Below are positions 34,213-52,619 of a stretch of 64,000 nucleotides of DNA, piece after piece. The notes under the pieces were generated by a model. The model did no database searches. It was not told where the DNA came from and was given only the letters and a program-made list of their open reading frames with translations. How positions within the stretch are numbered: the stretch's first letter is position 1; the number at the start of each line of letters is the position of its first letter. The position numbers were made by a program, and so were the translations under genes. Source of the stretch: Candidatus Entotheonellaceae bacterium (GTDB taxonomy: Bacteria > Tectomicrobia > Entotheonellia > Entotheonellales > Entotheonellaceae); contig OZ250173.1 of the NCBI GenBank assembly GCA_965238075.1, positions 1,344,001 to 1,408,000 of the forward strand, in the 5' to 3' direction.

Positions 34213-35502
34213 GGTGCCTCGAAAAATAACTCGCTGGCGGACAGAAGTGGCGTGAATGGCGCTGTCGCGTCACTGGCGACAGAGAATGAACGGTGGTTTG
34301 CGCGGTGATGTCGCGTCCCGACAGGGGCCATGGCCCTTTCAAAGAGGGCATCCGGCACCCACCCCGCTGCACCCTTTACCCTGAATCCACCATCGACAAC
34401 CGTTGCAATTGAACCAGGCGCCGCATGTTGTAGGCGAGGTTCTTAAGACCTAATCCGCGCCCGCGCCCGTACAAGCCCGATGCTGCGAACCAACGTCCCA
34501 CCCATGTCGTTGCGCTGCGCGCCGAAGACGTGTTCCACCCGTGCCCGAAACCGTGAACGACTCTTGTTGCCCGCCTTCTCCCAATCCCGCAACGGGTGGT
34601 TGCGATAGCCCTTGCGATGTATCCGACTTGTCAAACCCTTGGCCTTCACCTTCGCTTCAATGGCTTTCGACCGGTAGGCGCTGTCCGCCCAGACACCGCC
34701 TGCCGTGTTGTTCGGCGTCAGCAGGTCATCAACCGCTTGGCTGTCGTGGACCGCCGCGTCCGTCACCCGGTAACGCCGTATCAGCTTGTGCCGACGGTCG
34801 ATGTTGACATGATTCTTGTAGCCATAGTGGCTCTTGCCATGCTTCTTTGTCCAGCGCGCATCCGTATCCTTTTGCCGACGCTTGGCCGGCTTGTCGGCCC
34901 AGGCATCGGGTGTCTCACCCCGCTTGATCTGCTCATTGTCGTCACGACGATTGCGCTGGATGGGGACCGCCACAATCGAAGCATCAATGATCTGGCCACC
35001 CATTGCCTGGTAGCCCTGGCTTTTCAGGTAAGCGTCGAAATCCTCGAACAAGGCATCGATGAGGCCAGCCTGTGACAACTGCTCGCGGTAGAGCCACACC
35101 GTCTTGGCGTCCGGTACCTTGTCTTCGAGTGCCAGTCCCAGGAAGCGCACGAAGGAGAGGCGGTCGCGCATCTGATACTCGACCTGGTCATCCGACAGAT
35201 TGCACAGGGCGCACAGAATGATCGCTTTGAACATGACGATGGCGTCCCAGGGTTTGCACCCCGCATTAGACTTACGCTTGTCGGGTGGCTTGCGCCAGAC
35301 TTTCTCCAGGCGGTTCCTGAACGCTTCCCAAGCAACCAGCGCATTGATCCTTACTAATGGATCGGTTTTGGCATCCAAAGCGGCGTCGCGATTCTCGATA
35401 TCGAAAAAGCCCATCTGACCCATGCTCAACTCCCCCGGCTCTTTGGCAAATGTGTCTCAGTGATTCTAAACCAAGTGGGAGATGAGTATTATTAGAGATG
35501 CC
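34213..35502 (-). mobile_element. IS5-family element
   Basis: Transposase plus imperfect ends GGCATCTCTAATAAT / GGTGCCTCGAAAAAT (10/15 match); TSD not resolved. Confidence 0.7.
34376..35429 (-). pseudogene. IS5 transposase with a 1-nt insertion near the C-terminus
   Basis: LSDDQVE, VPDAKT, IIDASIV, YGYKNH, HDS, ADSAY, RARVEHVF; continuation GLKNLAYNMRRL lies in another frame after ~34450. Confidence 0.85.
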
Positions 35503-40515: not shown

Positions 40516-40986
40516 TCATTGCGCTGCGATACGCATGACGACGTCCCACTCCTGCTGCGTCACCGGCTGCACCGACAGGCGGCTGCCCTTGCGGATCACC
40601 ATCATCGCTTCCAGACCGGGGATGTCCTTCAGCGCCGCTAAGGTGATGGGCGTCTTGAAGGTGCGCACGTAGCCGACGTCGACCATCAGCCAGGTCGGCT
40701 GCGCCGAGTCGCTCTTCGCGTCGTAATAACGGCTGTTAGGGTCGAAGGCGGTGTCGTCGGAATAAGCCTCGCGCACCACTTCGGCAACGCCGTAGATGCC
40801 CATGGGCTTGGCGTTGCTGTGGTAGAAGAGCACGCCGTCGCCGAGCCGCATGTCGTCGCGCATGAAATTGCGCGCCTGGTAGTTGCGCACCCCTTCCCAG
40901 GACGTCGAGCCGTCGCGCTGCAGGTCGCCGATCGAGTAGACGCTCGGCTCCGATTTCATCAGCCAGTAGCGTTTTGGTTCGGCCAT
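40516..40986 (-). CDS. EVE domain protein
   Basis: YWLMKSEP, WEGVRNYQARNFM, FYHSN, YYD.KS, RLSVQPV. Confidence 0.93.
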   Translation of the reverse strand: MAEPKRYWLMKSEPSVYSIGDLQRDGSTSWEGVRNYQARNFMRDDMRLGDGVLFYHSNAKPMGIYGVAEVVREAYSDDTAFDPNSRYYDAKSDSAQPTWLMVDVGYVRTFKTPITLAALKDIPGLEAMMVIRKGSRLSVQPVTQQEWDVVMRIAAQ

Positions 40987-41032
40987 GAAGCCCCCTCCCC
41001 AATCTCTCCCTCGCACAGGAGGGGCATTTGGG

Positions 41033-41503
41033 CTATACGGCTGGAGCGCTGCTGTCCCGCACGCCCTGCACGGCGTCGGCGATGTCGGCCACGTCGAGCA
41101 CCATTTCCATCAGCGTCACCTGCTCCTCATACACCTCGGGCGACACCTGGCATTTGATCGCCTCCTCGGTGACGTGGTAGACCGGCAGCCCCAACGACGT
41201 GCCGGCCAAGGCGCCGGCCCACGAGGGATCGCCCTCGGTCACCGTCAGGGCGTACAGGCGGCTGCTCTCGGCGGTCGGCGTGCCCAGCACCACCACCATG
41301 TCCTCGCGCGGGTATTGCTCGGCCACCCGCTTGATCTCCTCCTGACCTTCCAGGTCAAGGGCGCCGGCGGCCGTTCAAACGAAACAATGGGTCACCTCCA
41401 GCACCACCTCGGCGCCGGCGCTCGTTGTGCATTGCGCGATGGCGCCGCCCTGGATGCCGTCGCGCTCGCCCAAGGCGATAACCTTCTTACCTTGCAGTTG
41501 CAT
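41033..41503 (-). CDS. grdA: Glycine/sarcosine/betaine reductase component A, selenoprotein (Sec43, 156 aa)
   Basis: ATG 41503 with RBS AAAGGAG; GKKVIALGERDGI..THCFV-TGA(41375-7)-TAAGALDLE in frame with GDPSWAGALAG..LGLPVYH. Confidence 0.93.
41341..41359 (-). promoter_or_regulatory. Candidate SECIS hairpin of grdA
   Basis: CUUGACCU-GGA-AGGUCAGG, 8-bp stem starting 15 nt after UGA. Confidence 0.7.
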
Positions 41504-41537
41504 GATGAATCTCCTTTCGGGGTTGTCCGTTGGCGCC

Positions 41538-41744
41538 TAGAGCGCTTTCGGAGCAAGACGGTTTGCAGGCCGGGACTTTCCCCTCACCCCAACCCTCTCT
41601 CGCCGGGGGAGAGGGAGCAAAAACCCCCTCTCAGGGTAAAGTCAGCCTCTTGATCCCCTCCCCCCTCCGTGGCGGAGGGCCAGGGAGGGGGCGTATGAGC
41701 CGACCGGTATTTCCACCGGTGCAATCAGATACGTAAATGCTCTA
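41538..41744. mobile_element. MITE (TAGAGC..GCTCTA ends) carrying REP hairpins
   Basis: Ends TAGAGCGCTTTCGG / revcomp TAGAGCATTTACG; inverted sister copy at 50699-50884. Confidence 0.75.
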
Positions 41745-43190
41745 ATCGTTGCGCTCCAAAAGCAATGACACGCCGTCGGCCATCTGCGTCATACGGCCGA
41801 GGAACAAGCTGCCCTTGGCGAGCAGCAGCACGCGCTGCAGGTCGCCGCCGCGCAGGCCGTCCACGGCGTGGCCGAGAAAGGGCACCGCCGAGGCGATATG
41901 CCCCTGCGTGGGTGAAAAGCCGGGCATGCCGTGCGCGGCGACGAAATCCGGCACCTGCGCGCGGGTGATTTGCTTGCCCATCGCCGCCAGGCCCGCGATG
42001 ACGCGGTAGTTGAGGAGCGGCACGTTGCCGCTGCCCGCCGGCTCGGTGACCTCCGGGTTGTGCAACTCGGTGGCGTACTTGTCGATGTCGCCGAAGCTCA
42101 GCCCCAGGCGCTGCAGAGGCTCGCTGACGAGTTGCTCGAAGATGGCCTTCTGCGACGGCCCGGCGGCCACGGTGTGGCGGCCCAGGGAGTCCAGTCGGAG
42201 TCTCGGTGAAGCGCCGTCGTCGCCGCTGACCAGAATGGCTACCGCAGCCAGCACGTCCTCCAGAATGGGCTGGTCGTGCTGCACGTGGCCGCGGTACTTC
42301 ATGCCCAGTTTGGAAAGCGCGCACCCCCCAACCACGACAACGTGCGAAAACACCCGGGCGCTGACCAGCCCGCCGGCGATGGCCAGGGCGTGCAGCGGGC
42401 CGCAGCAGAAGCCCTTGATATCGACGCCGGTTGCTGCCTGGCAGCCGCTCATTTCCGCCACCGCCTTGGCCAGGTTGCCGCCGCCGCGCTGGTAGCGGTC
42501 GCCCACCGCCTCCTCGCCGCTATTGAGTACGTAGGGGATGTCCATCGGGTCGATGGGCAACTGCGCCAGCAGGGTGCGCATGGCCAGGACGGCGGTCGTC
42601 TTGCAGGCCAGATTTTCGAGCAGCACGTCGGCGGCGAGCGTGGCATCCACCTCATGCGCGGCATGGAAACAGCCGATGCGGGAACCGTCGCGCAGGAAGA
42701 GCGGCAGGGCGGGCATGTCGCCTGTCAACCGGGCATCAAGATCGGCCTGCGAAACGCCCTTGCCCAATTGCTCGAGGTCGGCCGGCGTGCACAGCGGATG
42801 GACGTCCAGCGCGGGGCGGATGGACTCGATGAAGCCCGTATCCAAACTTACGAGATTGAAAACGTCGGCGATTTTCAGCCAGCCGTAAAACTCCTCCTCC
42901 GGCATGATCTCGCCGTGCGGCCCCCAGCGCTCGCCGCAACCGGCGTGCCGGAACCATGGCGTCGGCAGGCTGGCGAGAGCGTCCGGGTGGATGGCGCCGA
43001 GAAAGGCCTGGTTGGGTGGGTAGGCCGCGGCGTCGGCGTAGCCGCGCAGGTGGGCTTGCAGGGTATCGGCCACCGCCGGGTCGCGGTCGATGTCGCGGCT
43101 GGGCTTGGAGCCGTAGCGTACCAGCCCGGGGGTGTGGGCCAGGAAGAATCGCACCCCCCGGATGACGGGCTGCGCTGTCATCTGCTGCAT
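41742..43190 (-). CDS. grdC: Glycine/sarcosine/betaine reductase component C, beta subunit
   Basis: YPPNQAFLG, GEIMPEEEF, LLENLACK, SGEEAVGDRYQRGGGNLAKAVAE, FCCGP, ELHNPE, GFSPTQGHI, KGSLFLGRMT. Confidence 0.9.
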   Translation of the reverse strand: MQQMTAQPVIRGVRFFLAHTPGLVRYGSKPSRDIDRDPAVADTLQAHLRGYADAAAYPPNQAFLGAIHPDALASLPTPWFRHAGCGERWGPHGEIMPEEEFYGWLKIADVFNLVSLDTGFIESIRPALDVHPLCTPADLEQLGKGVSQADLDARLTGDMPALPLFLRDGSRIGCFHAAHEVDATLAADVLLENLACKTTAVLAMRTLLAQLPIDPMDIPYVLNSGEEAVGDRYQRGGGNLAKAVAEMSGCQAATGVDIKGFCCGPLHALAIAGGLVSARVFSHVVVVGGCALSKLGMKYRGHVQHDQPILEDVLAAVAILVSGDDGASPRLRLDSLGRHTVAAGPSQKAIFEQLVSEPLQRLGLSFGDIDKYATELHNPEVTEPAGSGNVPLLNYRVIAGLAAMGKQITRAQVPDFVAAHGMPGFSPTQGHIASAVPFLGHAVDGLRGGDLQRVLLLAKGSLFLGRMTQMADGVSLLLERND

Positions 43191-43212: not shown

Positions 43213-44502
43213 TCAGTACTCGATACAACTCATGCTGGTAAAGCCGTAGTGGTCGTCGTGGCGCGGTGGCGGCGGCAGTTGCCCGGCGGCCGGCACGCGC
43301 TGGTCGCGCAGCGGGCCGATGTCCTTGTACTGCAGGCCGATGACCCGTTCCACCGGCGGCAGGTCAGGCACCTCCAGCGTGCGCGTCTTGAAGAAGCTGG
43401 TGCTGACGATGGCGTTGGCCTCGGGCAGCGGCTCCAGCATGGTCGGGGCGGCCTCGGTGGCGTCGTCCTCGCTGGTCAGGAAGACGGTCTTGATGCCCAG
43501 TTGCTCGCAAGCCTGAATGGTGCGGACGACCTCGATGAACTCGTTGCCGCCGGCGTCCCAGGTCACCATCGCGCCCTGCGCGCCCAGGAGCTTTGCCAGC
43601 TTCGCCGTCTGGTTGGCCATGAGTTGCTTTTCGTGCTGCGTGGTCCACTCGGTACGCAGCGTGATGACACCCAGGAAATTCCAGTCGACGCCGTGGCGGC
43701 GGTACAGGTCGAGCAGCACGGGGTTGTTGGCCACCGTCCACGACATGGCAAACGCCGTGCGGTACGGGCCGGTGAGGGCGCCGTCGAGGATTTCGTTGGG
43801 GTGCAGGAACCATGGCGGCGTCAGTTGGGTGAGGCCGTAGGTGGTGGTGCAGAACGCCGTCGGCGAGCCGGACATGGCCTGCGGCGAGTGCACGCACCAG
43901 ATGTAGATCACGTTAGGGAGGTCAGGGTCGACTACGCGCAGTTCGAACACTTCCTGCTGCGGCGGGGTGAGGTGGCGCGTCGCCGCCGCGACCTGATCGT
44001 TGACCACCAGAGCCGCCTTGTGCACGGCGTCGTTCTGGGCTTCGTTGCCGAGGCCGGGGTCGGGTTCGACGACCGCGCACAGGTGGATGAGTTGGCTCAG
44101 CGGGATGAGTTCCGACCACGGACCGGACATGTCGAGGTAGACTTCCACGAAGTCGCCGCCGGCGTCGTGCCAGTTGACGCTCGACACCTCGGTGATGCCC
44201 ATGCCGGAGAGGCGGTGCGTGCGGCCTTCGCCTACCGTGGTGATGGCGCGGCCAGCGGTGCCGGGGTAGATGACGCCGGGACCTTCCACCTTGATGCGCG
44301 GCTCGATGACATCGCGCACCGGCCAGATGCGGGCGGAGTCGCCGGGACAGGCGATGTCCAGATCGACGCTGGCGATGCGGGGGTCGGCGTGCACGGCTTC
44401 GATGACGGCGTCCTTATCGACCTGCAAATGGCCGTCGGCGTAGCGGGTTTCGGAGCCGAAGGTGATGCGCTCAACGGGGAAGGTGCCCATCTCAAGACGC
44501 AT
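43213..44502 (-). CDS. grdE: Reductase component B GrdE/GrdI-like subunit
   Basis: MRLEMG.F, PGDSARI.PVRDVIEPR.K, VGEGRTH.L, DMSGP, HPNEILDGA, NNPV..DLY..HG, GIKTV. Confidence 0.85.
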   Translation of the reverse strand: MRLEMGTFPVERITFGSETRYADGHLQVDKDAVIEAVHADPRIASVDLDIACPGDSARIWPVRDVIEPRIKVEGPGVIYPGTAGRAITTVGEGRTHRLSGMGITEVSSVNWHDAGGDFVEVYLDMSGPWSELIPLSQLIHLCAVVEPDPGLGNEAQNDAVHKAALVVNDQVAAATRHLTPPQQEVFELRVVDPDLPNVIYIWCVHSPQAMSGSPTAFCTTTYGLTQLTPPWFLHPNEILDGALTGPYRTAFAMSWTVANNPVLLDLYRRHGVDWNFLGVITLRTEWTTQHEKQLMANQTAKLAKLLGAQGAMVTWDAGGNEFIEVVRTIQACEQLGIKTVFLTSEDDATEAAPTMLEPLPEANAIVSTSFFKTRTLEVPDLPPVERVIGLQYKDIGPLRDQRVPAAGQLPPPPRHDDHYGFTSMSCIEY

Positions 44503-45841
44503 GCGCCACCTCCTGCTCCGGGGTCATTTCCAACGGGTCGAACAGCGTCGGGCCGGGCACCGGCGTGCAGATGGCGTCGAGGGCGGTGCGCACGATGCGC
44601 ATGCCGTAGGCGTAATCCTTCTCGGGGCCGAGGTTCGGGTCGCCGCACACGTGCTCGATGCGCGAGCCGCGGATGACGCGGACGGCGCCGGTGGTGAGGG
44701 CGAGGTCATAGATGGCGGAGATCATGCCGACGGGGATACCGGCGCGCTCGATTTCCTTGGCGATCGTTGCACCGCAACGATTGCAGGTGCCTCACGTGGC
44801 CACCAGGAGACAGCCGTCAACCCCGCTGTTGACGAGGTCCTGGGCGATGCTGCGGCCCAAGTCGCACGACATGGCGACCGGCGTGGCGACGCCCGGCAGC
44901 GCGTAGATGGAACTGAAGACGCCGCCGATTTGGCCGTCGGCTTCCAGGTCGCGCAGGAAGTTGAGGGGCAGGATGTAGTTGGGATTGGAATTGACGATAT
45001 GGTTGAAATAGCCGGCGTGGTACGCCTCCCAATCGGCGTCGGAGAGGCTTTGCAGCTCGGCGACCGAGTGGCGGTAATACCGGCTGGCGTTGGCGGCGAC
45101 CTGCTTGTCCGGGTTGCCCTTGCGCACCAGGCCGCCGGTGGTGACCATGGCGATGGTGGCTCGCGACAGATCAGTGACGGGCACGGCGGGCTCGACTTTT
45201 TCCGGCGCGTGGATGGGTACCTCGGTAACAAACGGCTGATCCTTGAGCTTGGCCAGCAGCATATCGAGGGCGCGCTGGTAGCCGGGGCGTTGACGGTCAT
45301 GCACGCGCCGCACGCCGCGCGGCATGTAGCCGTCGATCTCCGCCGGTCCGAGCGCCTCCCCGCGGCCCAGCTTGCCTGCCAGCCGCACCATGGCGGCCAG
45401 CGCCTGCGGCATGTCGGCGGACGTTTCGCCGGTCGGCACCATGACGACGTCCGGCCAGCCGCTCAGCGCCCCCGGATTGTCCGGGTGCATGCCGCTGATA
45501 GCCTTGATGCCCAGCGCCTGTGCCGTCTTGCAAACCTCGGCGCACGCCAGCCCGTAGCGCCCGGAGCCAAACGCCGGCCCCGCTACCAGGATGTCCGGCT
45601 TCAGCGCCTCCAGATGCCCCTTGATGGCGGCCACGGCCTCCGCTTCCCGCTCGTTGAAGTAGTTGTCGCCGCAGACCAGCGTGCCCACCACGCTGCCCGC
45701 GCCGCCCAGCGCCTGTTGCAGCGCCCGGCCCGCGCCTACGGGCTCGTTTTCGAGCGACACCCCAACGTTCGCCGCGTCCTCGCCGCCAATACCGCCAAAG
45801 AACTGATTCACGTAATGCACCACGCGCAACGGGCTGTCCAT
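44492..45841 (-). CDS. grdB: Reductase component B selenoprotein (Sec350, 449 aa)
   Basis: VVHYVNQFFGGIGGED, CGDNYF, AGPAF, VTTGGLV.KGN; LVAT-TGA(44792-4)-GTCNRC (UxxCxxC) in frame with KEIERAGIP..HVCGDP. Confidence 0.93.
44763..44781 (-). promoter_or_regulatory. Candidate SECIS hairpin of grdB
   Basis: AUCGUUGC-GGU-GCAACGAU, perfect 8-bp stem starting 10 nt after UGA. Confidence 0.75.
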
Positions 45842-45998: not shown

Positions 45999-46589
45999 TC
46001 AAGGCCGATTCGTAGATGCCTCGGCCACGCCAGCCAGCAGATTTCCCAGCAGACGCAGGCCATGGTTGTTTTCCATGGTCAGAATTGACTCAGGATGGAA
46101 CTGCACGCCCTCAATGGGCAGGGCGCGGTGGCGGATGCCCATCACCACGTCGCCCCAGGTGGCGGTCACTTCGAAAACGTCGGGAATCGCGTCGCCGACC
46201 AGCGAGTGGTAGCGACCCACCGGCAGGGGTGACGGCAGGTCCTCGTAGATGCCTTGGCCGTAATGGTCAATCTCGCTCTGCTTGCCGTGGTAGGGGCGCG
46301 GCAGCACCCGTAGCGTGCCGCCGAAATACTCGATCATCGCCTGATGGCCCAGGCACACGCCGAACAGCGGCACGTGCTGGTGGAATTGATCAATGTAGGC
46401 CAGCAGGTTGCCGGCGTTGGCAGGCGTCGACGGGCCTGGCGAGAAGACCAGCAAATCCGGCTCCGACGCCGCCACGATGTCCACCGGGATGTCGTTGCGG
46501 TACACCCGCACGGTGCATTCGAGGCGGCGAAAGTAATCGACCAGATTGAAGGTGAACGAATCGAAATTGTCGATCATGGTGATGTTCAT
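45999..46589 (-). CDS. trpG: Anthranilate synthase component II (glutamine amidotransferase)
   Basis: IDNFDSFTFNL, SPGP, GVCLGHQ, RYHSL, GVQFHPES. Confidence 0.9.
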   Translation of the reverse strand: MNITMIDNFDSFTFNLVDYFRRLECTVRVYRNDIPVDIVAASEPDLLVFSPGPSTPANAGNLLAYIDQFHQHVPLFGVCLGHQAMIEYFGGTLRVLPRPYHGKQSEIDHYGQGIYEDLPSPLPVGRYHSLVGDAIPDVFEVTATWGDVVMGIRHRALPIEGVQFHPESILTMENNHGLRLLGNLLAGVAEASTNRP

Positions 46590-46604
46590 GGAAATTCCCC
46601 CCGT

Positions 46605-48227
46605 TTACTCGACGCCATCCAGCGCTTCAAGTAAAGCCCTTGCCTTGGCCTCGGTTTCCGCGTATTCGGCGGCCGGCTCCGAATCGAACAACAGCGTCGA
46701 GCCGACTCGCACGCGCACGTCGTAAGCGGGCGCCGCGCCGCTCTGCCGCCGCACCAGGTGCGCCGTGCGGATGATGATGCCGGTGTCGAGCTGGCCCGAG
46801 AACGTCAGGTAGCCAACGTTGCCCCCGTAGTAGCCGCGGCGGCTTTGCTCGTGGTTCTCGATGTACGCCATGGCTGCCGCCTTGGGCGTTCCTGTCAGGG
46901 TGCCGGCGTTGAGGCAGGCGATGAAGGCGTCGAAGGCAGACAGCCCGGCGGACAACTCGCCTTCCACCTGCGCCACCGTGTGCATCACGCGCGAGTATTT
47001 TTCGACGAAACGATAATCCGAGACGCTAACACCCGGCTCGCACACTCGACTGACGTCGTTGCGCGCCAGATCGATGAGCATGTCGAGTTCCGACTTTTCC
47101 TTCTCCGAGTTCAGCAGCTGCATCATGTTGTGATAGTCGGTGAGGCTGTCGGTGCCGCGCGGCATGGTGCCGGAAATGGGCCGCTGCTGCACCACGCCGC
47201 CTTCCACACGCACGAACATCTCAGGTGAGGCGCCGACCAGCGCCTCGTTGCCGTAATCGACGTAGAACTGGTATGGAGACGGATTGATGGCGCGGAACCG
47301 CCGGTATAGCTCCAGGGGGCTACGGGTATATTCACCCATGAAGCTGTGCGACAAGACGACCTCGAAGAATTCGCCCTGGCGCATCTGCTCGCGCGCCTCG
47401 TCGACCGCCGCCATGAAGGCGTCGCGCCCGGTGTCCGATTCCAGCTTGTGGGGGATGCGATGGCGCTCGGCGGCGGGTGTCGGGGCCGCTGGTTTCAGGC
47501 TGGACAGCCGCTCGCGCACCAGATCGACGGCGGAGGCGGAACTGTCCAGGAAATCGTAAATGATCAGCGTTGCTCGTTCCTTCAGGTGGTCGTAAAACAG
47601 CAGCATGTCCGGCATGAACAGCCGGAAATCCTGGCTGGGGCCGGGTTGCAGACGATCGGGCAACGGCTCGAACAGGCGTACAAAATCGTAGGCGAAAGCG
47701 CCGTACAACCCCAGGAAGCGGTCGTCGCAGCGAAAGTGCCGCAGCAGCGTGCGCACAATCTGCGAGATGTTGTTAAGGAGCAGCCGTTCGTCCTCGGCCA
47801 CCGGACGGCGTTCGCAGGGCACGGTGCCGGTCAGCGCTCGGTCGCCGCGCTGCAGGTCCTGGCAACAGGCGAAGTCAACGTCGGCGAGCGGCTGCCGCAG
47901 CATGGCCCGACCGCGTTCATTCAGGGCGCGGATGGCGAAGGCATCTTCCTTGCCCTCGACCAGCACCGGCGGGTCGATCACCGCCAGGGAGTAGCGGCCG
48001 TAGACGCGCGACACGTCGACCGACTCGTACAACACGCCCGGTGTGTTGGCGTTGAGGTGTTGGTAAAGCTCCAGGGGAGGCAAGTCGTCCCGGCTGAAAT
48101 CGAACGTCAGCGTCAGGCGTCGGAGGTTGCCGCGGCCGTCGCCGTAGGGCAGAACCTCCTCGCTGACCGGTTGCCGCAAGAGATACTCGTGCACGTCGCT
48201 GGCCGTCATGAAGGGTGTGCTTGTCAT
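46605..48227 (-). CDS. trpE: Anthranilate synthase component I
   Basis: LYES, GEFFEVVLS, INPSPY, GASPE, RPISGT, KEKSELDMLIDLARND, YSRVMH, GTLTGTPK; Trp-rich leader upstream. Confidence 0.9.
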   Translation of the reverse strand: MTSTPFMTASDVHEYLLRQPVSEEVLPYGDGRGNLRRLTLTFDFSRDDLPPLELYQHLNANTPGVLYESVDVSRVYGRYSLAVIDPPVLVEGKEDAFAIRALNERGRAMLRQPLADVDFACCQDLQRGDRALTGTVPCERRPVAEDERLLLNNISQIVRTLLRHFRCDDRFLGLYGAFAYDFVRLFEPLPDRLQPGPSQDFRLFMPDMLLFYDHLKERATLIIYDFLDSSASAVDLVRERLSSLKPAAPTPAAERHRIPHKLESDTGRDAFMAAVDEAREQMRQGEFFEVVLSHSFMGEYTRSPLELYRRFRAINPSPYQFYVDYGNEALVGASPEMFVRVEGGVVQQRPISGTMPRGTDSLTDYHNMMQLLNSEKEKSELDMLIDLARNDVSRVCEPGVSVSDYRFVEKYSRVMHTVAQVEGELSAGLSAFDAFIACLNAGTLTGTPKAAAMAYIENHEQSRRGYYGGNVGYLTFSGQLDTGIIIRTAHLVRRQSGAAPAYDVRVRVGSTLLFDSEPAAEYAETEAKARALLEALDGVE

Positions 48228-48404
48228 GGTTTCGTCCCCACAGTTACTGTCGTTGCAAATGCTCACTGCCTGCCCCGTGCGGCCTGCACGTCGGGCTGCG
48301 CCGCCACAGGGAACGCGCTTCTGCCGCAAGTGGGCTATGCTTCGATTAAATGATGCCGTACCGGAAAAGGAGCGGAAGAACCGAAACGTCGGGATGGGGC
48401 AGAC

Positions 48405-48711: not shown

Positions 48712-49602
48712 ATGCCACTGGCAGCCATGAACGACGGCACCCGCTTGTACTACGAATCCACCGGCAGCGGCTTCCCGCTGCTGTTCAGCCACGAGTATGC
48801 CGGCGATTACCGTAGCTGGGAGCCGCAAGTACGCTATTTCGCGCGGCGTTACCGGGTGATCGCGTACAACGCCCGCGGCTATCCCCCGTCGGACGTGCCG
48901 GAGGACGTCGGTTCATACTCGCAGGCGCGCGCCATGCACGACATCGCGCAGCTCCTGGAAGCGCTGCAGGTGCCGCAGGCGCATGTGGTCGGCCTGTCGA
49001 TGGGCGGCTACGCTACCCTGCATTTCGGTCTCAACTATCCGCAGATGGCGCGGTCACTGGTTGTGGCGGGATGCGGCTACGGCTCGGTGGCGGGCGACCG
49101 GCAGAAATTCCAGCAGGACTCGGCGCAGGTGGCGCAGCGCATTGAGCACGACGGCATGCAGGCCACGGCTGCCGTGTATGCCAAGGGTCCGACGCGGGTG
49201 CAGTTTGAGGACAAGGACCCACGCGGCTGGCAGGAATTCGCCGATCAGCTCGCCGAGCATTCGGCCACCGGCGCGTCCCTGACGATGCGCGGCGTGCAGG
49301 GTCAACGCCCCTCGGTGTACGAGTTGGAAGACCGGATGCGGCAGTTGCAGGTGCCCACCCTGATCGTTACCGGCGATGAGGACGAACCGTGCCTGGAGCC
49401 GGGGCTGTTCATGAAGCGCGTCATTCCAGCCGCCGGCCTCGTCGTTGTGCCCAAGACCGGCCACACGATCAACCTGGAGGAGCCGGAGTCGTTCAACCGT
49501 ATCGTCAGTGACTTTCTGACCGCTGTGGAATCCGGCCGGTGGCAGGCCCGTAATCCGGCCTCCCTGAGCACCTCGGCCATTCTGCCCGACGAGCAACGGT
49601 GA
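48712..49602 (+). CDS. Alpha/beta hydrolase
   Basis: HEYAGD, YNARGYPPS, GLSMGG, GDED, GHTINLEEP. Confidence 0.9.
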   Translation: MPLAAMNDGTRLYYESTGSGFPLLFSHEYAGDYRSWEPQVRYFARRYRVIAYNARGYPPSDVPEDVGSYSQARAMHDIAQLLEALQVPQAHVVGLSMGGYATLHFGLNYPQMARSLVVAGCGYGSVAGDRQKFQQDSAQVAQRIEHDGMQATAAVYAKGPTRVQFEDKDPRGWQEFADQLAEHSATGASLTMRGVQGQRPSVYELEDRMRQLQVPTLIVTGDEDEPCLEPGLFMKRVIPAAGLVVVPKTGHTINLEEPESFNRIVSDFLTAVESGRWQARNPASLSTSAILPDEQR

Positions 49603-49612
49603 GGACTGAGAT

Positions 49613-50701
49613 ATGTCCCGCCCCAAGGCCCAAGACCTGATCGGCGTCGTTGAAAATCCGCCGGAGCACAGCAGCGCCGCGCAACCGGACGCCGTTGCCC
49701 TGCTTTTCGACGCCCAAGAACCGCCGCCCTTTCCCGAGATGAACATCTTTCCTCTGGAATGGCGAGTCGAAACGCCCCTGCTGCAACAGATTTACGACCA
49801 GGCCCGCACCCCCGGCTGGTCACCCCACACCCTGCCCTGGGACACCCTCAAGGCCGATGATTTCTCCCTCGACGAGCGCTACGCTATGGCCTACTGGTTC
49901 ACCCTGCTGTCGGTGTTCGACGGCTCCGGCCCGGCGGTGTTCTCGCGCGCCTTCATCCACACTTGGGAAACGCACCAGGAAGACCCGGTGCGCAAATGCT
50001 TTTTCTCCATCGTGCGCGATGAGGTGAACCACGAAGAAGTCTGCCAGCGCGCCATCCAGATCCTGACGCCCAACGGGCCGCTCGGTTACGAGCCCGAAAC
50101 GCCCCTCGGCCGCCTCGCCCGCAACAACGTCAAGTGGTATTACCACAACGGTTGCCGCTACTGGAGCGGCTTCAAGAGCGGGATCACGAGATTTCAGCTG
50201 CCGATTCTGTTTGCGTCGTTCCTGATGGGGGAGGTGGCGGCGGCGACGCTGTTCCACGGCATGTACCAGCGCACCACGATGCCGGCGCTCAAAGAGGCGT
50301 TCAAGATGATCGGCAAGGACGAGGCGCGCCATATGGCGATCTGCCTGGCCGTGCTGCGCAGCGTGCTGCCGCGCCTGTCCGACGAGCAGCGTGCCGTCAT
50401 CACCCGGCAGATTCGTGCCGGGTTCGTCTTTCTGTCGGGGATTCTGTACGTGCCGCCCACGGACTTCTGGGAGCTTGGCCCCACCTTCCGCCCCGCACAC
50501 CGCATGCTGGAAGAGGCGGCCCGCGCCGCCGGACTCGGCATCCTGACGGAGGACGAGCGGGCCGAGAACTGGCGCGCTGCGGTGCTGCAGCTGAAGGGCA
50601 TTCTGGAGCCGCACGGGGTGGAATTTCCGGCCCTGCCGGAGATCGGCGTCGATGGCAAGACCGTGGCGATTGACCCGCAGGACATCATCCCGGTGTTTTA
50701 G
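49613..50701 (+). CDS. Ferritin-like di-iron carboxylate protein
   Basis: Paired DEVNH and DEARH (DExxH) motifs plus upstream acidic ligands (VFDG, MGEV). Confidence 0.75.
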   Translation: MSRPKAQDLIGVVENPPEHSSAAQPDAVALLFDAQEPPPFPEMNIFPLEWRVETPLLQQIYDQARTPGWSPHTLPWDTLKADDFSLDERYAMAYWFTLLSVFDGSGPAVFSRAFIHTWETHQEDPVRKCFFSIVRDEVNHEEVCQRAIQILTPNGPLGYEPETPLGRLARNNVKWYYHNGCRYWSGFKSGITRFQLPILFASFLMGEVAAATLFHGMYQRTTMPALKEAFKMIGKDEARHMAICLAVLRSVLPRLSDEQRAVITRQIRAGFVFLSGILYVPPTDFWELGPTFRPAHRMLEEAARAAGLGILTEDERAENWRAAVLQLKGILEPHGVEFPALPEIGVDGKTVAIDPQDIIPVF

Positions 50702-50884
50702 AGCATTTCCGTAATCGCCAACTCATACACCCCACTCCCTAGCCCTCCCCCTCAAGGGTGGAGGGAGCCAGCGAACTAAAGCCTTCCCCACGAAGGGGTC
50801 TGCTCCCTCTCCCCTGGCGGGAGAGGGTTGGGGTGAGGGGGAAGACCTTCGGATCGCAAACCATTTTGATCCGAAAGTGCTCTA
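50699..50884. mobile_element. MITE (TAGAGC..GCTCTA ends) carrying REP hairpins
   Basis: TAGAGCATTTCCG / revcomp TAGAGCACTTTCGG; sister of 41538-41744. Confidence 0.75.
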
Positions 50885-50906
50885 ACCCCGCCCGGAGGCG
50901 CGTTCC

Positions 50907-51623
50907 ATGAAGCTCTTGGTCTTTCAGCATATTGTGTGCGAACACCCCGGCTCGTTGCGGCAGTTCCTCAAGCGTGACGGCATTAAATGGGATGCGGTGG
51001 AACTGGACGCGAACGAACCGATTCCGGACCTGTCAGGCTACGACGCGATGTGGGTCATGGGCGGGCCGATGGACGTCTGGGATGTCGATGAGCACCCCTG
51101 GCTGATACCCGAAAAGGCGGCAATCCGAACCTGGGTGCGCGACCTGCAAAAGCCGTTTCTGGGGCTTTGTCTGGGGCACCAGCTTCTGGCCGATGCTCTG
51201 GGCGGCACCTGTGGGCCCCAGGTCCCGGCAGAAATCGGCCTCATGGATGTTGAGTTGACCGAGGCAGGTCTGACCGAACCGCTGTTTTCCGGCTTGGCCA
51301 CCAGGCAGAAGTGCCTGCAATGGCATTCGGTGCGGGTAGCTCAGCCGCCTGAAGGTGCGGTTGTGCTGGCGTGGTCGCCGGCGTGTCCTGTCCAGGCGAT
51401 GCGCGTCGGGCCGAACGCCTGGTCGATGCAGTATCACGTGGAGGTAGAGCCCGATACCGTGGCCAATTGGTCTGCTGTTCCCGCTTATCGCGACGCATTG
51501 GTCAGCGTCATGGGCGAGGGCGGGATGGGAACCCTGTCGCACGGTGCTGCGGACAACATGGCGGGTTTTCTGGCGAGTGCGGCAACGCTCTACGACAACT
51601 TCATGCGCCTTGCCAGAGCATGA
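50907..51623 (+). CDS. Class I glutamine amidotransferase-like protein
   Basis: QH..EHPG, MGGPM, GLCLGHQ, QWH, QYHVE. Confidence 0.88.
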   Translation: MKLLVFQHIVCEHPGSLRQFLKRDGIKWDAVELDANEPIPDLSGYDAMWVMGGPMDVWDVDEHPWLIPEKAAIRTWVRDLQKPFLGLCLGHQLLADALGGTCGPQVPAEIGLMDVELTEAGLTEPLFSGLATRQKCLQWHSVRVAQPPEGAVVLAWSPACPVQAMRVGPNAWSMQYHVEVEPDTVANWSAVPAYRDALVSVMGEGGMGTLSHGAADNMAGFLASAATLYDNFMRLARA

Positions 51624-51703
51624 GTAGCCTTGCTCCAAGCCTTGAATGGATTACACGCGGATAAACCACGCCTGATGGAATAACGAAAAGAAAGAATCGC
51701 AAC

Positions 51704-52087
51704 ATGATCGCCGTCATATTCGAAGTACAGGTCGCCCCGGCACGCAAGCAGGACTACCTCGACATTGCAGCAGCGTTGCGGCCCATTCTGGAGCAGGTCG
51801 ACGGCTTTCTGTCCATCGAACGCTTTCAAAGCCTGACCAACCCGGAAAAACTCTTGTCGCTTTCATTCTTCCGGGACGAGGAGGCCGTTCGGAACTGGCG
51901 CAATTTGAGCCAGCACCGGAGCGCTCAAAGCAAGGGGCGGGACGGTATTTTTGCCGACTATCGCTTGCGTGTGGCCGGCGTTATCCGCGATTACGGCATG
52001 TTCGAGCGCGACGAAGCGCCTGGGGACAGTCAGGCCACGCACTCGAGTAAAGAACACCTTGACCCGTCCGACCTATCCGCTCCCTGA
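51704..52087 (+). CDS. ABM (antibiotic biosynthesis monooxygenase) family protein
   Basis: MIAVIFEV, DGFLSIERF, WRN..H..AQ..GR, YRLRVA.V.RDY. Confidence 0.88.
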   Translation: MIAVIFEVQVAPARKQDYLDIAAALRPILEQVDGFLSIERFQSLTNPEKLLSLSFFRDEEAVRNWRNLSQHRSAQSKGRDGIFADYRLRVAGVIRDYGMFERDEAPGDSQATHSSKEHLDPSDLSAP

Positions 52088-52172
52088 GAAATTTCAGCAC
52101 GGTTTGCGTATCAGAAACCTGAAGTGGCACGCCCATGGAAGCCCGTTTCATCAGCCTATCAGCCGGGCGAGA

Positions 52173-52619
52173 CTACAAGGCCTTCAGGCGCTCCAGATTG
52201 GCCGCCCTCAACTCGGCCTCGGTGTGACCGAAGTCATAGGCAGGCGACAGGATCACTTCAGCCGCCGAAACCTCGATGACCACGAACGCAGACATAGACG
52301 GCACGTAATCCCCCCACGCGTCGTTGAAGGCGTCCCGCAGACGTTGTGGTGCCTCTGACTTATCAATGATGGAGCCTTTTCCCGTCACCCGGATTGCCTT
52401 GCGAGAGAGGACGTCGGTGAAGCATATCTCCACCGACGGGTTGGCGCGCAGGTTGGCCAGCGTTCCGGGGGACCGCAGATTGCCGAACGCCAACGTTTCG
52501 TCATCGACGATGACAAAGGTGGCCTTGGGCGACACCGAGGGCGTTCCGTCCGCATTGATGGTCGCCACCGATCCGGCCGAGAAGGTCCGGATCAGCGATT
52601 TCATTTCCTCAGTCAGCAT
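52173..52619 (-). CDS. Pyridoxamine 5'-phosphate oxidase-like FMN-binding protein
   Basis: VATINADGTPSVSPK, RSPGT.ANL.ANP, SPAYD. Confidence 0.85.
   Translation of the reverse strand: MLTEEMKSLIRTFSAGSVATINADGTPSVSPKATFVIVDDETLAFGNLRSPGTLANLRANPSVEICFTDVLSRKAIRVTGKGSIIDKSEAPQRLRDAFNDAWGDYVPSMSAFVVIEVSAAEVILSPAYDFGHTEAELRAANLERLKAL

What the first reader, a model, noticed from the sequence alone, without database searches (positions are those of the whole stretch)
43213..44502. GrdE-like subunit lacks the pyruvoyl-forming cysteine, pointing to a non-Schiff-base substrate
Seen: after HPNEILDGA the sequence reads LTGPYRTAFAMSW, with no Cys. Known: glycine/sarcosine reductase proproteins (GrdE/GrdG) self-cleave at a Cys just after this motif to make a pyruvoyl group that binds the substrate amine, whereas betaine reductase GrdI is not processed this way. 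Inference: the substrate has a pre-activated leaving group (glycine betaine, another quaternary amine, or a sulfonium analogue such as dimethylsulfonioacetate). From memory the loop does not resemble GrdI either, so it may be a new specificity class.
Basis: partly seen in the sequence, partly recalled or inferred. Interest (0 to 1): 0.75.

Follow-up and report, generated by a model that had tools for sequence, protein, structure and literature searches.

The report
Cysteine-less GrdE-like selenoenzyme subunit, new clade
This gene encodes the partner subunit of a selenium-dependent glycine-reductase-type enzyme that cannot make the usual pyruvoyl cofactor and belongs to an unstudied branch of the family, distinct from the glycine, sarcosine, betaine and fluoroacetate enzymes, whose substrate is still unknown.

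Summary
The minus-strand gene 43213-44502 encodes a 429-aa PF09338 protein. Where GrdE and GrdG carry Asn-Cys (Cys242, the pyruvoyl precursor), it reads Tyr247-Arg248. This is stable: 117 of 119 close homologues have no Cys in the 22 residues after DGA.

It is not GrdI. It is 30-34% identical to GrdI and 32-35% to GrdE. It sits in a separate 22-row clade (support 100), while GrdE, GrdG and GrdI together form one clade.

Its selenoprotein partner reaches none of NCBI's GrdB, GrdF or GrdH cut-offs and has its own motifs.

The operon grdB(Sec)-grdE-like-grdC-grdA(Sec) is conserved across this small phylum (probably Tectomicrobia) and in 80 metagenome loci. GrdD was found in none of them.

The genome has Sec machinery, three haem-copper oxidases, no acetate kinase, and two further Cys-less B/E pairs.

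A Cys-less state is common, not rare: 107 of the 111 family rows I aligned lack Asn-Cys.

The reading "substrate with a ready leaving group" fits the five characterised enzymes but is untested. Gene context gives no substrate clue.

This scan has flagged similar Cys-less, GrdD-less Grd operons on other DNA before.

Verdict: new variant of a known kind, moderate interest.

The parts
44492..45841 (-). grdB-like selenoprotein B gene (449 aa plus stop). In-frame TGA = Sec350 at 44792-44794, in the motif VATUGTCNRCGAT. Its end overlaps the grdE-like start by 11 nt.
   Evidence: read with TGA=U; PF07355, 386 bits; generic TIGR01918 421.5 bits; GrdF 402 against cut-off 800, GrdB 374 against 602, GrdH 359 against 775; clade-specific motifs YHAGYFN and LPGVATPVA; 70 of 70 related B genes have TGA at this codon.
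44760..44784 (-). Candidate SECIS hairpin, starting 11 nt after the grdB UGA (stem of about 10 pairs, GGU loop).
   Evidence: The hairpin is present, but the 65-nt stretch folds no better than shuffles (z = 0.5). Weak evidence.
43213..44502 (-). grdE-like gene (429 aa), the finding: a Cys-less, probably unprocessed E-type subunit of protein B.
   Evidence: AlphaFold2 model with mean pLDDT 92.2.
43738..43803 (-). Codons 234-255: HPNEILDGA followed by the loop LTGPYRTAFAMSW. Tyr247/Arg248 occupy the place of the Asn-Cys242 processing site of GrdE.
43225..43227 (-). Cys426 in the C-terminal tail ...YGFTSMSCIEY. This Cys is typical of the clade; GrdE/GrdG have Ala and GrdI has Met at that place.
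   Evidence: Cys in 16 of the 21 other clade rows; 43 of 45 tails in related loci. Its role is inferred, not shown.
41742..43190 (-). grdC (protein C, beta subunit), 482 aa.
   Evidence: NF040746, 604.9 bits, cut-off 450; DUF5940 plus ACP_syn_III.
41537..41741 (-). 205-nt dispersed intergenic repeat inserted between grdC and grdA.
   Evidence: contigs of X17 and X18 join 41536 to 41742, skipping it; 57 blastn hits in the genome, about 5 full-length copies at 66-77% identity.
41033..41503 (-). grdA (selenoprotein A), 156 aa. Sec at 41375-41377 in CFVUTAAG, followed by a strong hairpin (41320-41373).
   Evidence: PF04723, 197 bits, 1 TGA inside; hairpin -31.3 kcal/mol, z = -3.27; 2 of 200 shuffles fold as well.
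40516..41016 (-). EVE-domain gene directly downstream of grdA. Often kept there in relatives. Not known to be part of the enzyme.
   Evidence: PF01878; 3 of 7 relatives' loci; 4 metagenome loci with EVE behind grdA on the operon strand: L165, L167, L168, L170.

Best explanation
The gene encodes the E-type subunit of the substrate-specific 'protein B' of a selenocysteine-dependent Grd-type reductase. It belongs to an uncharacterised specificity class.

The subunit has Tyr/Arg where GrdE, GrdG and PrdA have the Cys that is cut and converted into a pyruvoyl group. It therefore most likely stays a single, unprocessed chain without a carbonyl cofactor, like GrdI of betaine reductase and FarE of fluoroacetate reductase.

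Inferred mechanism: with its GrdB-like partner it binds a compound of the type X-CH2-COO-. Sec350 attacks the alpha-carbon directly and displaces X, so X should be a good leaving group that needs no Schiff-base activation. The carboxymethyl group passes to Sec of GrdA and then to GrdC. Electrons come from a thiol system such as thioredoxin.

No GrdD and no acetate kinase were found. The acetyl or acetate product is therefore probably not released as acetyl phosphate for ATP synthesis, and the enzyme more likely serves assimilation or removal of a compound in an aerobe.

Shown here: gene anatomy, missing Cys, clade placement, operon conservation, Sec machinery. Inferred: lack of processing, the chemistry, and the fate of the product. 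The substrate is unknown.
For: Family and site:
- PF09338 match.
- Tyr247/Arg248 at the Cys242 site of the reference GrdE and GrdG. Conserved in 117 of 119 close homologues.
- No conserved Cys, Ser or Thr in the loop across the 22-row clade.

Separate clade:
- Support 100 for the 22-row clade, away from the GrdE+GrdG+GrdI clade (support 99).
- All specific NCBIfam models are far below their cut-offs.
- The partner B has its own motifs, [YF]H[AS]GYF[NT] and LPGV[AS]TPVA, at the places where GrdB, GrdF and GrdH differ from each other (motif places from PMC9751293, methods passage).

Real and in use:
- GC3 0.89.
- Full-length orthologues at 77% identity or more in 10 of the 16 other genomes of the phylum.
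- grdB directly upstream in 45 of 45 metagenome loci with enough DNA; grdC downstream in 31 of 45.
- TGA kept in 70 of 70 partner genes.
- tRNA-Sec, selA and selB present.
- Contigs from RNA libraries of 2 studies cover the operon.

System-level differences:
- GrdD in 0 of 17 phylum genomes, against 4 of 4 Clostridia controls, and in 0 of 80 metagenome loci, with a working positive control.
- No acetate kinase.
- Three COX1 genes.

Precedent: GrdI and FarE are described as Cys-less and not proproteins (PMC10838667, passages read).
Against: - No biochemical data exist for any member of this clade.
- The link between a missing Cys and a non-amine or onium substrate rests on only five characterised enzymes.
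- The role of the GrdE pyruvoyl is itself debated (PMC9908766, citing Andreesen 2004).
- Gene context offers no substrate clue: flanks vary and hold no transporter.
- The candidate SECIS after the grdB UGA is not more stable than shuffles.
- RNA-library contigs do not prove transcription.
- The genome is 93% complete, so GrdD or acetate kinase could have been missed in this one genome. GrdD is, however, missing in all 17 genomes of the phylum.
- I could not obtain a FarE reference sequence. That comparison rests on a model score (120.8 bits against a cut-off of 675) and on the paper's statement.
Confidence: 0.6

Rival explanations
1. It is a functional betaine reductase: a distant analogue of GrdI/GrdH that cleaves glycine betaine, or a near relative such as dimethylglycine, to trimethylamine plus an acetyl unit.
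For: - Like GrdI, it has an aromatic residue in place of the Cys: Phe in GrdI, Tyr here.
- The partner shares His-Ala-Gly with GrdH (IHAGFD against YHAGYF), where GrdB and GrdF have His-Gly-Gly.
- The stretch occurs in runs labelled sponge metagenome. Betaines are common osmolytes in such hosts (my own knowledge).
- grdH-like genes assigned to Proteobacteria were reported from marine metagenomes (PMC5537630, passages read).
Against: - Only 30-34% identical to GrdI, and in another clade.
- The partner scores 359 bits against the GrdH cut-off of 775.
- The Asp kept in GrdB, GrdF and GrdH (GGYD / AGFD) is Phe here.
- No betaine transporter lies nearby.
- The genome has three different Cys-less pairs, so at most one of them is likely to be the betaine enzyme.
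Confidence: 0.2
2. It acts on an ordinary amine (glycine-like or sarcosine-like). The activating carbonyl is supplied elsewhere, for example in the B subunit, so the loss of the GrdE pyruvoyl does not change the chemistry.
For: PMC9908766 (passages read) reports that both GrdE and GrdB reacted with a carbonyl reagent in earlier work. It also reports that Andreesen assigned glycine binding to the GrdB carbonyl.
Against: - All reference GrdE and GrdG keep the Cys (7 of 7), which argues that amine substrates need it.
- The Ser of the S-T-U-G motif, proposed in PMC10838667 as a possible carbonyl precursor in GrdB, is Ala in 58 of 70 partner genes of this clade.
- The glycine-specific and sarcosine-specific GrdB and GrdF motifs are not met.
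Confidence: 0.12
3. The protein is still processed, at another residue: for example Thr249 or Ser254 in the loop, or one of the Cys conserved among orthologues, such as Cys218.
For: Thr249, Ser254 and Cys218 are conserved among the 119 close homologues. Other pyruvoyl enzymes use Ser (my own knowledge).
Against: - Across the 22-row clade the loop is variable or deleted: position 249 is a gap in 9 of 22 rows.
- Position 218 is Gly in 16 of 21 rows.
- Ser/Thr254 corresponds to the Thr of the T-T-Y motif, which is also present in GrdE without being cleaved there.
- No Asn precedes any of these residues.
Confidence: 0.05
4. The operon is a decaying or silent remnant without function.
For: GrdD and acetate kinase are missing. 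The organism respires oxygen.
Against: - Open frames with high GC3.
- 77-96% identity among orthologues across the phylum.
- TGA kept in 70 of 70 partner genes.
- Strong SECIS hairpin in grdA.
- Complete Sec machinery.
- Present in RNA-library contigs of two studies.
Confidence: 0.03

Closest known systems
   Same: E-type subunit without the processing Cys, with an aromatic residue in its place. Sec-containing partner with U-x-x-C. The partner has His-Ala-Gly in the second motif. Presumably direct displacement of a leaving group without a Schiff base.
   Different: 30-34% identity and a different clade. The loop is GPYRTAFAMSW rather than SGSFMP[CS]SSKWSTY. The partner is far below the GrdH cut-off and lacks the conserved Asp. 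The tail has Cys instead of Met. No GrdD in the genome or phylum. The host is aerobic.
GrdE/GrdB glycine reductase and GrdG/GrdF sarcosine reductase (references from Terrisporobacter mayombei, T. muris, S. saalensis, B. mesophilus)
   Same: Same two protein families (PF09338 and PF07355). Same neighbours GrdA and GrdC. Sec in B and in A.
   Different: No Asn-Cys242 site, so no pyruvoyl. 32-35% identity. The GrdB and GrdF motifs (AHGGxD..TxGNxTxV and IHGGYDR..TTGTGT) are not met. Gene order is B-E rather than E-B. No GrdD.
FarE/FarB fluoroacetate reductase (Cloacibacillus porcorum; PMC10838667)
   Same: Cys-less E-type subunit that is not a proprotein, acting on a non-amine X-CH2-COO- substrate. 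A precedent for new specificities in this family.
   Different: The NF053623 score is 120.8 bits against a cut-off of 675. The partner here keeps C-x-x-C, whereas FarB is reported to lack it; the paralogue at C1:600 kb of this genome does lack it. No FarE sequence was in hand for a direct alignment.
PrdA/PrdB D-proline reductase
   Same: Distant homologues. The selenoprotein partner belongs to the same superfamily.
   Different: Only residues 3-74 match TIGR04480 (33.7 bits against a cut-off of 700). PrdA is processed at Cys421.

Membership tests
PF09338 Gly_reductase (GrdE/GrdG/GrdI superfamily) | Match to the Pfam model over its gathering score | tested here: met
   262.5 bits against a cut-off of 22.2, residues 1-391.
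GrdE (glycine reductase proprotein) | Asn-Cys processing site (Cys242) that gives the pyruvoyl group | tested here: not met
   Tyr247/Arg248 at that place. 6 of 6 reference GrdE have Asn-Cys.
GrdE (glycine reductase proprotein) | Partner is GrdB by NCBI's equivalog model TIGR01917 (cut-off 602.2) | tested here: not met
   373.8 bits. Reference partners score 726-744.
GrdG (sarcosine reductase) | NF040793 over 780 bits; partner GrdF (NF040794) over 800 | tested here: not met
   208.9 bits. Partner 401.8 bits.
GrdI (betaine reductase) | No processing Cys (unprocessed subunit) | tested here: met
   No Cys at the site. Whether the protein is actually unprocessed was not tested.
GrdI (betaine reductase) | Partner is GrdH by NF040795 (cut-off 775) | tested here: not met
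   359.3 bits. Reference GrdH score 785-853.
GrdI (betaine reductase) | Groups with GrdI in a tree | tested here: not met
   The 7 GrdI references group with support 100, inside a GrdE+GrdG+GrdI clade (99). The window protein lies in another clade (100). FastTree, SH-like support only.
FarE (fluoroacetate reductase) | NF053623 over 675 bits | tested here: not met
   120.8 bits.
PrdA (D-proline reductase) | TIGR04480 over 700 bits | tested here: not met
   33.7 bits, residues 3-74 only.
Grd-type selenoprotein reductase system | Selenoprotein B with Sec in U-x-x-C | tested here: met
   VATUGTCNRCG, TGA at 44792-44794. TGA in 70 of 70 relatives.
Grd-type selenoprotein reductase system | Selenoprotein A (GrdA) with C-x-x-U, and GrdC | tested here: met
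   GrdA: CFVU, PF04723 197 bits. GrdC: NF040746 604.9 bits against a cut-off of 450.
Grd-type selenoprotein reductase system | GrdD (protein C alpha subunit, forms acetyl phosphate) | tested here: not met
   NF040747 found in 0 of 17 phylum genomes, 4 of 4 Clostridia controls and 0 of 80 metagenome loci.
Grd-type selenoprotein reductase system | Reductase activity on X-CH2-COOH with a thiol electron donor | not testable with these tools
   Needs an enzyme assay.

The most novel reading that the evidence does not exclude
This clade is a new substrate class of selenium-dependent carboxymethyl-X reductases, used by aerobic sponge-associated and soil bacteria. It would act on a leaving group other than a methylated amine. 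Candidates are a sulfonium, arsonium or halide analogue: dimethylsulfonioacetate, arsenobetaine or a haloacetate. This fits the loss, in the B partner, of the Asp that all three amine or ammonium enzymes keep. The clade-specific C-terminal Cys426 of the E-type subunit would take part in catalysis. The product would be released without GrdD and without acetyl phosphate.
Probability: 0.15. Interest if true: 0.8.

Novelty: new variant of a known kind. Interest (0 to 1): 0.5.

Why it matters
Grd-type reductases are textbook enzymes of strictly anaerobic amino-acid fermenters. Only four substrates of the glycine-reductase (Grd) type are known: glycine, sarcosine, betaine and fluoroacetate.

Here an intact, conserved and probably expressed version sits in an oxygen-respiring lineage. 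It comes in three paralogous substrate modules that share one GrdA and one GrdC. It has no pyruvoyl site and no GrdD.

Most of the family members nearest to it are equally uncharacterised. Finding the substrates would widen the known chemistry of selenoenzymes. It could also reveal new routes for the turnover of osmolytes or onium compounds (a source of trimethylamine or dimethylsulfide) in sponges and soils.

The report gives a concrete, testable target: one B/E pair, with Tyr247/Arg248, Cys426 and Sec350 as the residues to probe.

Tried and rejected
- Sequence search of the PDB found nothing at E up to 1. Foldseek of the pLDDT-92 model against the PDB found nothing at E up to 0.001. There is no structural template for the loop or the tail.
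- Gene context as a substrate clue failed. The chorismate-binding/GATase pair directly upstream is not kept in relatives. Flanks in 7 relatives' loci hold no transporter and no shared enzyme.
- The first tree run (treekit default) did not finish in 288 s, so I used FastTree. Supports are SH-like only.
- Literature: no paper holds both 'glycine reductase' and 'Entotheonella'. None of the 20 papers listed, of 84 matching, for Tectomicrobia plus Grd terms contains the word Tectomicrobia. The selenoproteome papers mention GrdB only as a rare marine family.
- An earlier-findings look-up by place returned nothing.
- A short probe for the intergenic repeat found only its own copy in the window. Genome-wide blastn did find copies.
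- I could not obtain a FarE or FarB reference sequence, because no genome of that lineage was among my handles.
- I did not run complex prediction. A pass for a homologue of a known subunit pair would not have changed my odds.
- I did not pursue RNA-library depth as a measure of expression, because contigs cannot rank genes.
Full report
**1. What is there**

The minus strand of the window carries four closely spaced genes.

- A GrdB-type gene, 44492-45841. Its in-frame TGA at 44792-44794 gives Sec350 in VATUGTCNRCGAT.
- The GrdE-like gene of the finding, 43213-44502. It encodes 429 aa and overlaps the end of grdB by 11 nt.
- grdC, 41742-43190. NF040746 scores 604.9 bits, over its cut-off of 450.
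- After a 238-nt spacer, grdA, 41033-41503. Its Sec lies in CFVUTAAG and is followed by a strong hairpin (z = -3.27).

The window lies in a 3.35-Mb, single-contig genome of 62% G+C, 93% complete. The genome has tRNA-Sec, and selA and selB side by side. It has three haem-copper oxidase subunit I genes and no acetate kinase.

Homologues at 83% identity carry the names Candidatus Entotheonellaceae and Candidatus Tectomicrobia. The phylum holds only 17 species genomes. I infer the lineage from these names; I did not verify it.

**2. The observation**

To place the processing site without relying on memory, I built references from genomes.

- I took PF09338 genes in Terrisporobacter mayombei, T. 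muris, Sedimentibacter saalensis and Brassicibacter mesophilus.
- I classified each by its neighbour with NCBI's curated models. Five partners are GrdB (726-744 bits, cut-off 602). One is GrdF (836, cut-off 800). Two are GrdH (847 and 850, cut-off 775).
- A sixth GrdE reference, from Brassicibacter, was taken by its likeness to the others. Its neighbour is cut off in the fetched locus and was not scanned.
- I added 13 more GrdI genes, taken from directly upstream of GrdH genes that pass the cut-off. GrdH passed in 62 of 301 genomes of that order.

The alignment shows:

| Protein | Sequence after DGA |
|---|---|
| GrdE | DGAxxSGN-C-VS[AS]CDKNTTY |
| GrdG | SGN-C-VAPCDKVTTY |
| GrdI | SGS-F-MP[CS]SSKWSTY |
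| Window protein | DGALT-GP-Y-RTAFAMSW |

In the 428-aa GrdE the Cys is residue 242. This agrees with the pyruvoyl peptide aa242-266 of C. difficile GrdE (PMC9908766, passages read).

So Tyr247, or Arg248 without the gap, replaces the Cys. The trait is fixed. 117 of 119 close homologues have no Cys in the 22 residues after DGA. The 2 exceptions carry a non-conserved Cys two residues after DGA.

**3. Where it belongs**

The all-against-all representative search found 1087 clusters at E up to 0.001. Of the 150 listed I kept the 108 of 395-470 aa, dropping 42 fragments or fusions, and added the genome's own three paralogues.

Only 4 of these 111 rows have Asn-Cys. Among the relatives nearest to this protein, the Cys-less state is therefore the rule. 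This sample is biased towards the query.

In a FastTree tree with the references (SH-like supports, midpoint root):

- GrdE, GrdG and GrdI together form one clade (support 99).
- The window protein lies in a different 22-row clade (support 100), together with one of its paralogues.

Identities of the window protein are 32-35% to GrdE, 33% to GrdG, 30-34% to GrdI, and 40% and 39% to its two paralogues.

The specific NCBIfam models are all far below their cut-offs: GrdG 209 against 780, FarE 121 against 675, PrdA 34 against 700.

Within the 22-row clade the loop is variable and often deleted. No Cys, Ser or Thr is conserved in it. The conserved Ser/Thr-Trp corresponds to the Thr-Tyr that uncleaved and cleaved family members all share.

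**4. The partner and the system**

The GrdB-like partner reaches only the generic family model: 421.5 bits, against GrdF 402, GrdB 374 and GrdH 359.

PMC9751293 (methods passage) locates the places where GrdB and GrdF differ; at the same places GrdH differs too in my alignment. There this clade has its own residues:

| Protein | Second motif | Third motif |
|---|---|---|
| GrdB | AHGGYDP | TVGNGTAV |
| GrdF | IHGGYDR | TTGTGTSV |
| GrdH | IHAGFDP | TVGTGTTQ |
| This clade | [YF]H[AS]GYF[NT] | LPGV[AS]TPVA |

These clade motifs are conserved in 55 and 67 of 70 related genes respectively. The Asp shared by the three amine or ammonium enzymes is Phe here.

All 70 related B genes keep TGA.

The E-type subunit also has a clade-typical Cys four residues from its C-terminus (SCIEY). 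GrdE/GrdG have Ala and GrdI has Met at that place. I can only flag this.

Distribution and gene order:

- Full-length orthologues at 77-96% identity occur in 10 of the 16 other genomes of the phylum, with partial copies in two more.
- The order grdB-grdE-grdC is kept in 6 of 7 fetched loci; grdA follows in 3.
- In 80 metagenome loci, grdB lies directly upstream in 45 of 45 with enough DNA. grdC lies directly downstream in 31 of 45. grdA is present in 21 of 36.

GrdD was found nowhere:

- 0 of 17 phylum genomes, against 4 of 4 Clostridia controls.
- 0 of 80 metagenome loci. The same query finds [12 protein letters not shown] in T. mayombei.

The genome has one PlsX-type gene elsewhere.

It also holds two more Cys-less B/E pairs, but only one grdA and one grdC. 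This looks like three substrate modules feeding one shared A/C core.

**5. Expression and habitat hints**

The operon's sequence is held by 20 public runs of 9 studies, 8 of them RNA libraries. Some are labelled sponge metagenome.

I laid contigs of four RNA-library runs from two studies on the operon. They cover it at about 98-99% identity. One 2345-nt piece spans grdE and grdB across the UGA codon.

This is presence in RNA libraries, not proof of transcription.

**6. Mechanism and rivals**

Among characterised enzymes, those acting on N-H amines carry the Cys: glycine, sarcosine and D-proline. Those acting on betaine or fluoroacetate do not (PMC10838667).

That is inference from five cases. 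PMC9908766 also recalls a model in which the substrate-binding carbonyl sits in GrdB.

No context clue names the substrate.

I rate the readings as follows:

| Reading | Confidence |
|---|---|
| General: unprocessed subunit of a new specificity class | 0.6 |
| Betaine as the actual substrate | about 0.2 |
| An amine substrate with a carbonyl elsewhere | about 0.12 |
| Alternative processing site | 0.05 |
| Dead remnant | 0.03 |

The missing GrdD and acetate kinase suggest the product is not acetyl phosphate used for ATP.

**7. Novelty**

Cys-less E-type subunits are known (GrdI, FarE). This scan has already reported Cys-less, GrdD-less Grd operons in other genomes: soil Actinomycetota, Rokubacteria and sponge-associated bacteria. 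I did not check those notes.

What is specific here:
- a defined clade with its own B-subunit motifs;
- conservation throughout a small phylum;
- three paralogous modules in one aerobe;
- the C-terminal Cys.

I found no paper on this clade. I class it as a new variant of a known kind, of moderate interest.

Noticed in passing
G000:C1:598695-601690 (L009:8695-11690) and G000:C1:2595932-2598570 (L010:9932-12570): Two further GrdE-like/GrdB-like (Sec) pairs lie in the same genome, both Cys-less at the processing site. The B protein of the first pair reads PATUGTGTRSGAT, so it lacks the C-x-x-C, as is reported for FarB. The genome has only one grdA and one grdC.
   Followed up: partly
window 41537-41741; also window 50722-50884: A 205-nt dispersed intergenic repeat sits between grdC and grdA. 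It gives 57 blastn hits in the genome, with about 5 full-length copies at 66-77% identity. Contigs of two RNA-library runs join across it, so a related strain lacks this copy. Summed contig depth peaks over it.
   Followed up: partly
window 45999-48329 and 48712-52619: Upstream of the operon lies a chorismate-binding/glutamine amidotransferase pair (anthranilate or aminodeoxychorismate synthase type). On the other strand lie an alpha/beta hydrolase, a weak AurF-like N-oxygenase match (30.2 bits against a cut-off of 29.6), a second GATase, an ABM monooxygenase and a PNPOx-like protein. This may be an aminobenzoate-derived small-molecule cluster. The synthase pair is not kept next to grd in relatives.
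   Followed up: no
window 40516-41016: An EVE-domain gene sits directly behind grdA. It is kept there in 3 of 7 relatives' loci and in several metagenome loci. The reason is unknown.
   Followed up: partly
window 34443-35429: A DDE transposase gene (DDE_Tnp_1 with DUF772).
   Followed up: no
L233 (Terrisporobacter mayombei, G001:C1:3636300-3640100) and G004:C355: In both Terrisporobacter genomes the GrdD match lies in one open frame of 862-863 aa that also matches GrdC. This is an apparent GrdC-GrdD fusion, or a read-through in my ORF call.
   Followed up: no
whole genome G000: No acetate kinase (PF00871) was found, three COX1 genes are present, and the single PlsX-type gene lies far from the grd loci. 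This is an oxygen-respiring organism with a complete selenocysteine system.
   Followed up: partly
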